From the UHGV virus genome UHGV-0379735: a stretch of DNA of 26,733 bases; one strand, given 5' to 3'. This stretch comes from a virus. Position numbers: made by a program. Positions within the stretch are counted from its first letter, which is position 1. Every line of letters begins with the position of its first letter. This document shows positions 6,001-9,000 of the stretch, one piece after another.

Positions 6001-9000
6001 TAGTTCCTACTTTTAGCTGGTTTGCCATTACTATACTGGCATTTGCTCTCTGCTACTCAATAAACGATAAAATTAAAGAGCACAAGTTCGCTGGATTTAT
6101 GGCTGACATTAGCTACCCGCTGTATCTTTGCCACTCATATATTGGCTATTTCTTGATGGGGGTAATTATAAGCTTTGGCATCTTGCCAAGATCGCTTGTT
6201 GTTTTCATACCATTTCCAGTGGCTATCGGCGTTGCATACCTCATACACAAATACGTGGAAATGCCGACGCACAGAATGACTTTCTCAGGAATATTGAAAC
6301 TCAAAAAGGCATAATTAAAGGGGCTTGCGCCCCTTTTTTAGTATCCAACAGTCTGAACTGCCCCTGACCCAGATGAAGATGATTGAAGTTCCATGGTGTA
6401 ATAACCATTAAGTGGCTCACCTTCCCAATCAAGGTTAATGCGTAATACATGGCCATATTTGGTTGCATTTGACTGGGCGATAAACCCTCCAGGCTTATCT
6501 ATATCTCTCTGTGGCATCCCAGAATATACCTGATTTGCAGTATATGCCTTATCAACAGCAGGAGCGCCAATAGAGGCGGTAATTTTAGGCCACGTTCCGG
6601 AGCTGTGCAGAACATCTACAGCATACCCGGTAAGCCCGGTTGATGTTCTCCTGATCAAACATTCAATATACCCACTCCCATGAGATCCGCCAATCGACTT
6701 GATAATCAGTTTTGCAGTACCGCAATCCCATGGATTTAAAGTCTGATCCCAACATTCAGCCTTTAGGCCGCTAGGCATAGGAAAATCCACGCTGGTTAAC
6801 ACTGCCTCACCTGGCCATACTCCTCCCACAACTATTGGACTCGGTATCCTGACACTCAATGTTTCTAAATATCCTCTTCCCCATCCATTATTTGTTTGTC
6901 TGGCAAGGTGCTCGTAAATTGGCCTTATTGTCAAAGCCTGAATAAACGCTGGCTTGGATGCTGGCGCATCTGCTGCGTTATAAATACTGATAGTTTTCCA
7001 TCCCCTACCAATCAGCGTACCAATACGCTTTTGCAAGGCATCAGAGTGATTATTAGATCCACGATTTCGTGCTACAGTAACAGTGCTCTGAATTGCGTTA
7101 TAGTTTGTTTGCACAAAACTATTTTGCTCGGCGAAAGCATAGTATGAAACCCCTATAGAGGGATGGACCTCCTGTGGTTCAGAGAAGCAAAATGACAAAT
7201 TAGAGTCATCCAGCCAGCTACCAACAACATCAACTTCTGCTGCCTCTGCATCAAGATAGAAACTGTATGACGTTCTAACATATTTTCCAGCATCAAACCC
7301 ACCAATGATGCCTTGAAGCGTATATGTCTCGTAACCAAATCCCATTGTTACATTGTCAAAAGCATCAAAAAAACCAATCTGATCGCTCTGTTTGTATGGC
7401 CATACCGTTATTTCTGTAGATACTGGTCTATAAAACGGAAGCATTCCTCCGGCCATCATCATTGAACCAATTGCTTCAGCTATTCGTTGATATCCGACAG
7501 AGTTGAAGTGAATTGGGTCTGATGCGATAGAACCATATGGGATATTGTATGGTATTTCATTTGCTTCGATATATGCACAACCATATACATGAGCTAAATT
7601 TCTGATTTCCTGCCCCCAAATTTGGAACTGTTGAATATTACCATGCTGCTCATTACCACCTGCAACTGGCTGAAGAATAATAACCCCCATCCCCCAATCA
7701 ATGAATCTACGAATGAACTTCTCCATATACGTTAAATACACGTCTATCGTGGTTGATGTAGAGTCATTTATCGCATACATAATAATTGCAACATCACAAT
7801 TAGGATTATCCTGCCATGCTAAATATTCAAATCCTTGTTGTGCTGTCTGCCCGGATACTGCTCTAGTGATACTTGTTACATTCCCACCGGTACAGATAGA
7901 AAGGTATCTTGCGAGCCTTTCTGGATAGGTTACATTAGCACGACGCGTTAACCCTGTTCCGTTTGCATCTGTTGAGTTAGGATCCCAACCAAAAGTCTCA
8001 CTATCTCCCTGACAAAGGATCGATAATCCAGACTTTTTACGAAGATTGAAGTGAGCCTTGGTAAGAGCCTGAATATTTCTGTTTCTATAATCAGCGCTAT
8101 CTGATGCCAAAGTAGCGTTGCCAAGATTTGTAATGTGCTCTTGAACAGTCTTCCCATCATCAGTTCCGATTAATAAAGATCCTCCTGATCCAGACAGTTC
8201 CTGTCGCAGTTGATCTGGATCATATTTAATTACATTAGGGTAATAAAATTGCAAACCACCAACAGCATCATACACCGCCATCGAATGGCCTTTCACAGTA
8301 ACAAACTTGGCAATCTGTCCGTTATATACAGGGTAACCAGCAGCGTTAATGATGATTGGTTGCGAAACAGGAACGTGAGAACCATCCTCATTATCCACAT
8401 AAACCTGAATCTGGTTTTCAGGATTTACAGGGTCAGTGTCAATTTTACCGATATAAATTTTGCCATTGGCAACCGCTTTAAAAGAACGCGCCATAGTGAA
8501 AAGTTGCGAAGGCATCGATACGATCACATTGGCTGTAATGTCTGTCATTTAATTTGCTCCAGATACAAGGAATCGCCGCAGAGTGGCTACGGTTGGTGTT
8601 TGTTGCATACCGAAACGGTACGATTGTTGATTTGTACAGTAGGTTTTACGATGCCATTCCACCCAACTGGTGAGGCATCAAGGATGTACAGCAAATACGA
8701 CGAGGCGCAGTTTCACTTGAGACTTCCGCATGAACTTCACGCGAAAATTAAGCAGCGTGCGAAGATGAATAACAGGTCGCTGAACTCAGAGATAATTGCA
8801 GCGATTGAAGAATCATTGGCTAAACAAAGCTCTGCATCCGGTTACATTGACGATGCAGAGCGTATGGCAGAACAACAATCCGATATGGTAAAGAAAATTG
8901 TCTTTGATACGTTCAGAGATTTATATAAAAAAGACAGCAACTAACCATCCGTGTCTTTCCGTTACTTCTGGTTATCATCACTGTTCATCCAGTACATGAT

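What the first reader, a model, noticed from the sequence alone, without database searches (positions are those of the whole stretch)
8549..8944. Orphan Mnt repressor placed directly divergent from the tailspike gene; arc, ant and sieA absent
In P22 the immI region between gene 16 and gene 9 is sieA-mnt-arc-ant, with Mnt repressing the ant promoter, whose transcript continues into gene 9. Here gp16 is followed after 17 bp by mnt, and 135 bp further by the divergent tailspike gene, with no arc or ant. The Mnt homologue may therefore act directly on a promoter driving the tailspike, or may be a relic regulator without a target. The intergenic region contains an inverted repeat (8651-8680) as a possible operator.
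Basis: partly seen in the sequence, partly recalled or inferred. Interest (0 to 1): 0.5.

Follow-up and report, generated by a model that had tools for sequence, protein, structure and literature searches.

The report
Mnt-only repressor cassette beside tailspike
A P22-type prophage carries the small Mnt repressor gene without its usual partners arc and ant, an arrangement already known from phages such as ST64T, L and Sf101; comparison shows the gene and a matching operator are kept by selection, but nothing shows that it drives the neighbouring tailspike gene.

Summary
The gene layout is as described. The tailspike gene lies at 6338-8548 (-), followed by a 135-bp spacer, mnt at 8684-8944 (+), a 17-bp gap, and a gp16-position ejection-protein gene at 8962-11730 (-). 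There is no arc, ant, sieA or sar.

This mnt-only "ant moron" is already published for ST64T, ST104, L, SE1, ST160, Gally and Sf101, which is 90% identical here.

My results:
- **Not a relic.** Of 83 close alleles, 82 are intact, and pN/pS is 0.13.
- **Likely operator.** It has the same geometry relative to Pmnt as P22 Omnt. It changes when the Mnt DNA-contact residues change. Its TACC-N5-GGTA core is kept in 85 of 88 loci of this class, and it occurs once in the whole Sf101 genome.
It exists (8650-8679) but is no more than chance in a single sequence. It is identical in two Mnt classes with different contact residues.
- **No tailspike promoter found.** The Pant hexamers are degraded: 7/12 in the window and 7-8/12 in 12 orphan loci, against 10-11/12 in six of eight complete loci.

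Best reading: a self-contained, autoregulated Mnt cassette, with the tailspike read from the late operon. What Mnt gains the phage remains unknown. This is a new member of a known kind.

The parts
6338..8548 (-). Tailspike gene (736 aa): a P22-type head-binding N-terminal domain plus a GDSL/SGNH esterase-like domain. It is the last gene of the late operon.
   Evidence: ORF list. Pfam Head_binding E 1e-63 and Lipase_GDSL_2 E 9e-11. 71% identical to P22 gp9 residues 1-117.
8549..8593 (-). Tailspike 5' leader. It is homologous to the 45 nt upstream of P22 gene 9 and ends in the 'boundary sequence' GTGGCTACGG (8584-8593). Homology to P22 stops here, and the mnt module begins to its right.
   Evidence: Direct comparison with the P22 sequence. 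Alignment with Sf101, ST160 and VSe13. L088 joins the same boundary to the other P22 copy.
8607..8621 (.). Putative Mnt operator (Omnt of this specificity class): ATACCGAAACGGTAC, core TACC-N5-GGTA, centre at 8614. The centre lies 10 nt before the TTG of the Pmnt -35 and 66 nt from the tailspike ATG.
   Evidence: Same centre-to-(-35) spacing as P22 Omnt and the ST64T-class palindrome. The palindrome changes with the Mnt beta-strand residues. Core kept in 85 of 88 loci with 7 different central pentamers. It occurs once in the window, once in the whole Sf101 genome and once in a 40.9-kb prophage region. The ST64T-class palindrome occupies the Omnt position in complete mnt-arc-ant loci. Binding was not tested.
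8624..8652 (+). Pmnt, by homology with the P22 Pmnt: -35 TTGTTG (8624-8629), 17-nt spacer, -35-to-(-10) partner TACGAT (8647-8652). The start is predicted near 8659-8661. The consensus match is weak (7/12).
   Evidence: Position matches the annotated P22 Pmnt. TTGnnG-17-TAnGAT is invariant in all orphan loci aligned. Scored. An alternative upstream promoter, with -10 (T/G)ATTGT at 8622-8627 and the operator in its spacer, scores 8-9/12 in distant relatives but only about 6/12 here (the window value is my own count).
8650..8679 (.). It overlaps the end of the -10 and the mnt Shine-Dalgarno (GAGG, 8672-8675). Its function is unexplained, and it is probably not the Mnt operator.
   Evidence: The arms are nearly invariant in 26 leader variants from two Mnt specificity classes. 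It is absent from complete immI loci. It is not unusual by chance. The fold is weak.
8684..8944 (+). mnt: 86 aa, a ribbon-helix-helix N-terminal domain plus the Mnt tetramerisation C-terminal domain. It is transcribed against the late operon.
   Evidence: Pfam Arc and Repressor_Mnt. PDB 1MNT and 1QEY. 48% identical to P22 Mnt and 93% to Sf101 orf14. pN/pS 0.13.
8962..11730 (-). Ejection protein in the gene-16 position (922 aa; SLT domain plus a gp16-like block). It converges on mnt across a 17-bp gap with no predicted terminator.
   Evidence: The terminator scan found none in the gap.

Best explanation
The locus is the smallest form of the 'ant moron' of P22-like phages: a self-contained mnt cassette, here in an integrated Sf101-like prophage.

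**Proposed mechanism.**
- Mnt is a ribbon-helix-helix tetramer.
- It is made from its own weak promoter Pmnt (-35 at 8624-8629, -10 at 8647-8652).
- It binds one palindromic operator (8607-8621) that abuts the -35 hexamer, and so sets its own level. Negative autoregulation is inferred.

The strong divergent promoter Pant, which this operator controls in P22, has been lost here together with arc, ant and sar. The tailspike gene keeps the same 45-nt leader as P22 gene 9. It is most likely expressed only by read-through of late-operon transcripts, which cross mnt on the antisense strand.

**Shown:**
- homology and layout;
- selection on mnt and on its regulatory DNA;
- co-variation of the operator with the Mnt contact residues;
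- a single copy of the operator in the phage genome;
- degradation of the Pant hexamers.

**Inferred:**
- DNA binding;
- the sign of autoregulation;
- the transcription start;
- the absence of a tailspike promoter.

What Mnt does for the phage is not established. One candidate is repression in trans of cognate Pant promoters on incoming ant-carrying phages. Another is service as the regulator of a prophage-expressed cassette that in relatives carries cargo genes downstream of mnt.
For: **Layout and family.**

**Same arrangement in published phages.**; papers PMC2629481 and PMC8022706.

**Operator.**
- Its centre lies exactly 10 nt before the TTG of the -35 in P22, ST160 and the window.
- Four Mnt recognition classes go with four palindromes:
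  - MARDDPHFNFR with GGTCCACCGTGGACC;
  - MGRDDPQFNLR with AGACCACnGTGGTCT;
  - MARDDPQFNFR with ATATCACCGTGATAT;
  - YDEAQFHLR with rTACC-N5-GGTAC.
- The ST64T-class palindrome sits at the Omnt position, next to a good Pant (TTGACA-17-CAT(C/T)AT), in complete mnt-arc-ant loci.
- The core is kept in 85 of 88 loci, at 64-70 nt from the ATG in distant relatives.
- It occurs once per genome.

**Selection.**
- 82 of 83 alleles are intact; pN/pS is 0.13; segregating sites by codon position are 15/11/36.
- The upstream 110 nt are 72-76% identical where third codon positions are only 42-57% identical.
- In the Citrobacter locus, a stop codon in mnt and a mutated operator core occur together.

**No Pant.**
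- The consensus scan finds nothing on the - strand.
- The best match is 7/12, and 92% of shuffles reach that.
- 12 orphan loci score 7-8/12, against 10-11/12 in six of eight complete loci.

**Tailspike leader.** It matches the P22 gene 9 leader up to the boundary sequence.

**Cargo downstream of mnt in relatives.**
Against: - No binding, transcription-start or expression data exist for this class.
- Pmnt itself scores only 7/12, no better than the best tailspike-directed candidate (TCGTAA-17-AACAAT). That candidate would start inside the operator, so a weak Mnt-controlled leftward promoter cannot be ruled out.
- In the orphan-mnt prophage Gally, tailspike RNA rises about 15-fold while the upstream injection gene stays at background (PMC9928086 S1 Table). 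Transcription of a tailspike independent of Plate therefore happens in this kind of locus.
- In Gally, mnt is at background in stationary LB and 40-fold induced in macrophages. This points to control by something other than simple autoregulation.
- Deleting the Gally mnt gave no phenotype for bacterial survival in macrophages, the only phenotype reported there.
- The invariant repeat at 8650-8679 is not explained by this model.
- An alternative promoter, with the operator in its spacer, fits distant relatives better.
Confidence: 0.55

Rival explanations
1. The operator still overlaps a leftward promoter descended from Pant, which now reads straight into the tailspike gene. Mnt would then keep tailspike expression off in the lysogen or tune it.
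For: - The operator-promoter geometry is that of P22 Pant/Omnt/Pmnt.
- The best - strand candidate, TCGTAA-17-AACAAT, recurs in relatives and would start within the operator.
- The operator is always the leftmost conserved element of the module, and it always faces a tailspike gene, even when the tailspike N-terminus and leader are of a different type.
- Gally RNA-seq shows tailspike RNA uncoupled from the late genes.
Against: - The candidate scores 7/12, and 92% of shuffles do as well.
- Its hexamers are just the complements of the Pmnt hexamers, so their conservation carries no extra information.
- Six of eight complete loci keep 10-11/12 at this place.
- In Gally, mnt and tailspike RNA rise together, which is not what repression by Mnt predicts.
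- In Gally, a highly expressed moron gene on the tailspike strand just upstream could give read-through. The window has no such gene.
Confidence: 0.2
2. Trans-acting immunity. The prophage keeps Mnt to silence the Pant promoter of incoming phages that carry ant under the same operator type. This would protect the resident repressor from a foreign antirepressor.
For: - mnt is under purifying selection although it has no cis target other than its own promoter.
- For the sister ST64T class, complete mnt-arc-ant loci with the same operator and the same contact residues do exist (L099, L152, L163).
- P22 Mnt is known to act in trans on superinfecting genomes (established P22 biology, from my own knowledge).
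Against: No locus combining the window-class operator or N-terminus with arc and ant was found. The loci examined comprise 80 IMG/VR relatives, 19 more found through the exact operator, 6 genome loci and 7 context look-ups of distant cluster representatives.
Confidence: 0.15
3. Decaying remnant. mnt is left over from a deleted immI region and has no function.
For: - This was suggested as one option for phage L (PMC8022706).
- Occasional broken copies exist: L069 has a nonsense codon, and the Citrobacter locus L095 has a stop at codon 5.
- The Gally mnt deletion has no phenotype in the one assay done.
- Kapi1 mnt is not expressed in LB or in simulated intestinal fluid.
Against: - pN/pS is 0.13 and 82 of 83 alleles are intact.
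- The N-terminal DNA-binding half is almost invariant across Escherichia, Serratia, Rahnella and Citrobacter relatives whose synonymous sites are near saturation.
- The operator and promoter are conserved.
- The class coexists with a separate RHH-arc-antirepressor module in L346, so it is not simply what is left after a deletion.
Confidence: 0.08
4. The inverted repeat at 8650-8679 is the Mnt operator.
For: The arms are almost invariant in 26 leader variants. The repeat overlaps the -10 and the start region, a good place for a repressor.
Against: - The arms are identical in the window class and the ST64T class, although the DNA-contacting beta-strand residues differ (K/Y-Q-H-R against R-Q-N-R).
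- The arm spacing of 18-19 nt is unlike any known Mnt or Arc operator.
- The repeat is absent from complete immI loci.
- It is at chance level within one sequence.
Confidence: 0.05

Closest known systems
Mnt-only 'ant moron' of P22-like phages ST64T, ST104, L, SE1, ST160 and Gally (Villafane et al. 2008, PMC2629481; Zaworski et al. 2020, PMC8022706)
   Same: - mnt lies between the gene-16-position ejection gene and the tailspike gene, is transcribed against the late operon, and is divergent from the tailspike across a 135-146 bp spacer, with no arc, ant or sar.
- It has the same leader type, including the GATGCC...GGCATC repeat and the TTGnnG-17-TAnGAT promoter.
   Different: - Different DNA-contact residues (YDEAQFHLR against RDDPQFNLR) and a different palindrome (TACC-N5-GGTA against AGACCACnGTGGTCT).
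- The window has no second gene in the moron. mnt ends 17 bp from the ejection gene, whereas ST64T, L, ST160 and Gally have one or two extra ORFs.
Phage Sf101 orf14 region (KJ832078; Jakhetia et al. 2014, PMC4159516)
   Same: - Same synteny: integrase, O-acyltransferase, tailspike, mnt, SLT ejection protein.
- Mnt is 93% identical and the DNA 90% identical over 701 bp.
- mnt is also 17 bp from the ejection gene.
   Different: - The Sf101 spacer is 121 bp, with a different left part and no GTGGCTACGG boundary.
- The operator centre is GAAAT rather than GAAAC.
- The tailspike receptor-binding part differs.
- The gene is annotated there as 'chromosome segregation ATPase', and the paper does not discuss it.
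P22 immI region (mnt-Omnt/Pmnt/Pant/Oarc-arc-sar-ant)
   Same: - A homologous Mnt (48% identity, both domains).
- The same position in the genome.
- The same operator-to-Pmnt spacing.
- The same 45-nt gene 9 leader.
   Different: - No arc, ant, sar, sieA or orf59a.
- No strong Pant (7/12 against 11/12).
- A different operator sequence and different contact residues.
Ribbon-helix-helix autoregulators in general (Arc, CopG, ParG, omega, antitoxins)
   Same: A small RHH protein with a palindromic site at or next to the -35 of its own promoter. This is the basis for inferring negative autoregulation (from my own knowledge).
   Different: Those are dimers or dimers of dimers, usually on repeated sites. 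Mnt has a dedicated tetramerisation domain and a single 15-17 bp operator.

Membership tests
Mnt repressor family (P22 Mnt type) | N-terminal ribbon-helix-helix (Arc-like) DNA-binding domain | tested here: met
   Pfam PF03869 Arc, E 6.4e-15, 55 bits against a cut-off of 20.4. PDB 1MNT, E 5e-20.
Mnt repressor family (P22 Mnt type) | C-terminal Mnt tetramerisation (coiled-coil) domain | tested here: met
   Pfam PF11423 Repressor_Mnt, E 3.9e-13, residues 57-82. PDB 1QEY, E 3.7e-8.
Mnt repressor family (P22 Mnt type) | Gene lies between the last ejection gene and the tailspike gene, and is transcribed against the late operon | tested here: met
Mnt repressor family (P22 Mnt type) | Single palindromic operator of about 15-17 bp abutting the -35 of Pmnt | tested here: met
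   A palindrome at 8607-8621 with the same spacing as P22 Omnt. It co-varies with the recognition residues and is kept in 85 of 88 loci. This is sequence-level evidence only.
Mnt repressor family (P22 Mnt type) | Protein binds that operator as a tetramer | not testable with these tools
   Needs EMSA or footprinting.
Mnt repressor family (P22 Mnt type) | P22 contact residues Arg2, His6, Asn8 and Arg10 (residue list recalled from the literature) | tested here: not met
   The aligned residues are Tyr (with Lys one position earlier), Gln, His and Arg. The protein is therefore a family member with a different specificity class.
Complete immI immunity region (P22 type) | arc gene divergent from mnt | tested here: not met
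   No ORF of this kind between 8549 and 8683 or elsewhere nearby.
Complete immI immunity region (P22 type) | Antirepressor gene ant downstream of arc | tested here: not met
   The tailspike gene starts 135 bp from mnt.
Complete immI immunity region (P22 type) | Strong promoter Pant whose start is covered by the Mnt operator | tested here: not met
   Best - strand match is 7/12, within the shuffle range. Six of eight complete loci score 10-11/12.
Complete immI immunity region (P22 type) | sar antisense RNA | tested here: not met
   No Rfam match in 8300-9200 apart from a chance-level rliB hit.
Mnt-only ant moron of P22-like phages | mnt present between the ejection gene and the tailspike, without arc or ant | tested here: met
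   Described in PMC2629481.
Mnt-only ant moron of P22-like phages | Accompanying gene(s) of unknown function in the moron | tested here: not met
   Only 17 bp separate mnt from the ejection gene. This is the same as in Sf101.

The most novel reading that the evidence does not exclude
The mnt-operator cassette is not a leftover of immI. It would be an independent, portable regulatory module that stays attached to the 5' side of tailspike genes of several unrelated types. Through its operator, 66 bp upstream of the tailspike start, it would tune tailspike transcription by acting on a weak leftward promoter or on late read-through. It would respond to host conditions through the invariant GATGCC...GGCATC element, as the 40-fold macrophage induction of the Gally mnt hints. 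Its operator and recognition-residue pairs would diversify as immunity specificities do.
Probability: 0.15. Interest if true: 0.55.

Novelty: new member of a known kind. Interest (0 to 1): 0.3.

Why it matters
As it stands this is ordinary. It is one more Sf101-like prophage with the already described mnt-only moron.

The comparative results do sharpen an open question raised in the phage L and epsilon34 genome papers, namely whether the lone mnt is a remnant or has a function:
- The gene and a co-varying operator are clearly maintained by selection.
- The operator is unique in the genome.
- This specificity class has not been seen with arc and ant.

The question is therefore directly testable with a small set of binding, reporter and superinfection experiments. 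The work also gives a ready set of natural Mnt-operator specificity pairs for study of ribbon-helix-helix DNA recognition.

Tried and rejected
- **Second cis target.** I searched for another operator copy in the window, in the whole Sf101 genome and in a 40.9-kb prophage region. There is none.
- **Window-class Mnt or operator next to arc and ant.** None was found in IMG/VR, GTDB genomes or seven context look-ups of distant cluster representatives.
- **Other hits to the exact 15-mer.** They fall in an unrelated phage family, where the 15-mer occurs twice, 515 bp apart, ahead of small genes upstream of terminase, and in scattered contigs. No Mnt lies nearby, and the number is about what chance predicts for a 15-mer in a collection of this size by my rough estimate. 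I rejected them as targets.
- **Consensus promoter scans.** Nothing convincing appears on the tailspike strand. Pmnt is also too weak to be called by the standard scan.
z is -1.6 to -1.7. The few arm substitutions are mostly C-to-T changes that could keep G-U pairs on the + strand, but one inner-stem variant only pairs on the - strand. The result is inconclusive.
- **Rfam.** No sar or other family was found.
- **Terminators.** None was found between the ejection gene and the tailspike gene.
- **Literature.** No experimental study of an orphan Mnt operator was found. Only the Gally deletion and RNA-seq, and the lack of expression of the Kapi1 mnt, came up.
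Full report
**1. What is there**

The window carries an integrated P22-like (Lederbergvirus, Sf101-type) prophage. From the left end:
- Host genes come first: mlaA at 1259-2014 (-) and a formate/nitrite-transporter-family gene at 2308-3240 (+).
- A phage integrase follows at 3516-4706.
- An Acyl_transf_3 gene lies at 5151-6314 (+).
- The tailspike gene lies at 6338-8548 (-).
- A 135-bp spacer covers 8549-8683.
- An 86-aa ORF lies at 8684-8944 (+).
- A 17-bp gap follows.
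- A 922-aa gene lies at 8962-11730 (-), and a gp20-like translocase gene at 11731-13062 (-).

The 86-aa protein matches both Pfam Arc (E 6e-15) and the Mnt tetramerisation domain (E 4e-13). It also matches both solved Mnt fragments, 1MNT and 1QEY. It is 48% identical to P22 Mnt.

No arc, ant, sieA or sar is present.

**2. It is a known arrangement**

DNA and protein searches of annotated phages find the same layout, mnt divergent from the tailspike with no arc or ant in between, in:
- Sf101 (90% DNA identity across the whole 701-bp query);
- IME10, by DNA/protein match only (the record is unannotated there and was not inspected);
- SE1, ST160, ST64T and Gally;
- JEP4 and VSe13, which add antirepressor-type genes on the gene-16 side of mnt.

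ST104 and phage L carry ST64T-type mnt genes and are described as mnt-only in the papers below.

The literature already names it:
- Villafane et al. 2008 call the region between gene 16 and the tailspike the 'ant moron'. [quoted passage not shown]
- Zaworski et al. [quoted passage not shown]

In E. coli complete genomes, 19 genomes hold at least 80% of a 901-bp query spanning the locus. Many more hold the tailspike-mnt part.

**3. Not a relic**

I collected 83 close relatives of this mnt: 80 IMG/VR loci, Sf101, one Escherichia sp. genome, and the window itself.
- 82 are intact.
- There are 58 nucleotide alleles, with pooled pN/pS of 0.13.
- Segregating sites by codon position are 15/11/36.

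Cluster representatives from the large protein collection keep the N-terminal motif (Y/K)(Y/E)DEAQFHLR down to 62% overall identity. Their C-terminal halves are mosaic.

Between the window and such distant relatives, third codon positions are only 42-57% identical. The 110 nt upstream of the coding region are 72-76% identical. The regulatory DNA is therefore under constraint as well.

Rare broken copies exist. One has a nonsense allele. The Citrobacter copy has a stop at codon 5, and there the operator core is mutated too.

**4. Where the operator is**

In P22 the annotated Omnt (AGGTCCACCGTGGACCT) has its centre exactly 10 nt before the TTG of the Pmnt -35 hexamer.
- At the same place, ST160, ST64T and Gally have AGACCAC(G/T)GTGGTCT.
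- The window has ATACCGAAACGGTAC (8607-8621, centre 8614).

The palindrome changes together with the N-terminal beta-strand of Mnt:

| Mnt N-terminus | Palindrome | Source |
|---|---|---|
| MARDDPHFNFR | GGTCCACCGTGGACC | P22, epsilon34, UPF_BP1, Pluralibacter; Pectobacterium has GAGTCCACCGTGGACC |
| MGRDDPQFNLR | AGACCACnGTGGTCT | ST64T class |
| MARDDPQFNFR | ATATCACCGTGATAT | Phlomobacter |
| YDEAQFHLR | rTACC-N5-GGTAC | window class |

A scan of IMG/VR for the ST64T-class palindrome found 23 orphan loci with MGR(D/E)DPQFNLR. It also found three complete mnt-arc-ant loci (L099, L152, L163). In those, the palindrome sits next to a good Pant, TTGACA-17-CAT(C/T)AT. This confirms that the position is a true Omnt.

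For the window class:
- The core TACC-N5-GGTA is kept in 85 of 88 loci, with seven different central pentamers.
- It lies 64-70 nt from the ATG in distant relatives.
- It is always the leftmost conserved element of the module.
- It occurs once in the 26.7-kb window, once in the whole 38.7-kb Sf101 genome and once in a 40.9-kb prophage region. There is thus no second target in cis.

Within one sequence the palindrome is not statistically unusual, since 46% of shuffles have one. The case for it rests entirely on comparison.

**5.

GATGCC (8650-8655) pairs with GGCATC (8674-8679). The repeat is real but at chance level in one sequence, and it folds weakly.

Its arms are nearly invariant in 26 leader variants. 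It is the same in the window class and in the ST64T class, whose DNA-contact residues differ. It is absent from complete immI loci. It is therefore very unlikely to be the specificity operator of Mnt.

It overlaps the end of the -10 (TACGAT, 8647-8652) and the Shine-Dalgarno (GAGG, 8672-8675). I leave it unexplained. It may reflect promoter and ribosome-site constraint, a host-factor site, or a leader hairpin if transcription starts further upstream.

An alternative promoter has -10 (T/G)ATTGT at 8622-8627 and the operator in its spacer. It scores 8-9/12 in distant relatives but only about 6/12 in the window (the window value is my own count).

**6. Is there a promoter for the tailspike?**

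The tailspike leader (8549-8593) matches the 45 nt before P22 gene 9 up to the boundary sequence GTGGCTACGG. Homology then stops.

At the positions of the P22 Pant hexamers, the window has ATGGCA and CAAATC.
- The standard scan finds nothing on the - strand.
- The best candidate, TCGTAA-17-AACAAT, scores 7/12. 92% of shuffles reach that.
- 12 orphan loci score 7-8/12. Six of eight complete loci score 10-11/12 (Kapi1 8, Phlomobacter 7).

Sequence therefore gives no support for a tailspike promoter, although Pmnt itself is equally weak (7/12).

Published RNA-seq of the orphan-mnt prophage Gally in E. coli LF82 is relevant.
- In stationary LB, mnt and the tailspike are at background.
- In macrophages, mnt rises 40-fold and the tailspike about 15-fold.
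- The injection gene just upstream in the late operon stays at background.
- A moron gene on the tailspike strand, absent from the window, is very highly expressed.
- A mnt deletion did not change bacterial survival in macrophages.

So tailspike RNA independent of the late promoter occurs in this kind of locus. Its source is not known, and mnt and tailspike RNA rise together rather than in opposition.

**7. Context in relatives**

None of more than 100 loci of the window class has arc or ant next to mnt. The neighbour is always a tailspike gene, sometimes with an HNH endonuclease gene inserted.

In distant relatives, mnt is followed on its own strand by cargo genes: Rap1a-like, ClpP-like and unknown. 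In the window and in Sf101 there is none.

In L346 the window-class mnt sits beside a tailspike of a different type. A separate RHH-arc-antirepressor module lies on the gene-16 side. In that locus, then, this mnt is not simply what a deletion left behind.

**8. Verdict**

The most likely reading (0.55) is a self-contained, autoregulated Mnt cassette with its operator at 8607-8621, and the tailspike expressed from the late operon.

Rivals:
- a weak Mnt-controlled leftward promoter (0.2);
- trans immunity against ant-carrying phages (0.15);
- a decaying remnant (0.08);

This is a new member of a known kind, of modest interest.

Noticed in passing
window 6338-8548 (-) and 5151-6314 (+): The tailspike combines a P22 head-binding N-terminus with a GDSL/SGNH esterase-like domain (aa 178-360). 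It sits next to an Acyl_transf_3 O-acyltransferase-like gene, in the position of Sf101 oacB. This looks like a pairing of a receptor-modifying gene with a probable receptor-deacetylating tailspike.
   Followed up: partly
window 8962-11730 (-): The ejection protein in the gene-16 position is a mosaic. It has an N-terminal SLT lytic transglycosylase domain and a 137-aa block that is 81% identical to P22 gp16 residues 53-189. The rest is unrelated.
   Followed up: partly
L020, L021, L042, L086, L219, L221 (about 130 bp upstream of mnt); Kapi1 L010: An HNH endonuclease gene (162-179 aa) is inserted between the mnt module and the tailspike gene. In the IMG/VR loci it leaves a stub of the first five tailspike codons.
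   Followed up: no
L219-L223, L348 (downstream of mnt, same strand): In distant relatives mnt heads a small same-strand operon with cargo genes: Rap1a-like (PF18602), ClpP-like, or unknown small proteins. The window and Sf101 have no cargo.
   Followed up: partly
L346 2863-5415: A window-class mnt lies beside a tailspike of a different type (Tail_spike_N / Peptidase_S74). A second, separate RHH - Arc - Bro-N/P22_AR_C antirepressor module lies on the gene-16 side. That module has its own palindrome, TTGGTTCTACAACCAA.
   Followed up: partly
window 8650-8679: The arms of the inverted repeat GATGCC...GGCATC are almost invariant across both orphan Mnt classes, but the repeat is absent from complete immI loci. 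Its function is unknown.
   Followed up: partly
L226, L239, L248 and others (IMG/VR): The exact 15-mer ATACCGAAACGGTAC occurs twice, 515 bp apart, just after a TATATA box and ahead of two small genes upstream of terminase, in an unrelated phage family with no Mnt. I judged it a chance match carried by one family.
   Followed up: yes
RefSeq records NC_002371, NC_004348, NC_027398 and others: mnt is annotated as 'partition protein ATPase' in RefSeq copies, and as 'chromosome segregation ATPase' in Sf101 GenBank. This is a propagated misannotation of a ribbon-helix-helix repressor.
   Followed up: no
window 1-4706: The left end of the window is host chromosome (mlaA and a formate/nitrite-transporter-family gene), followed by the phage integrase. 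The window therefore spans one prophage-host junction.
   Followed up: no
L131 7650-7760: In one ST64T-class orphan, a half-site of the operator (GGTGGTCTTA) is repeated about 25 nt to the left of the full palindrome.
   Followed up: no
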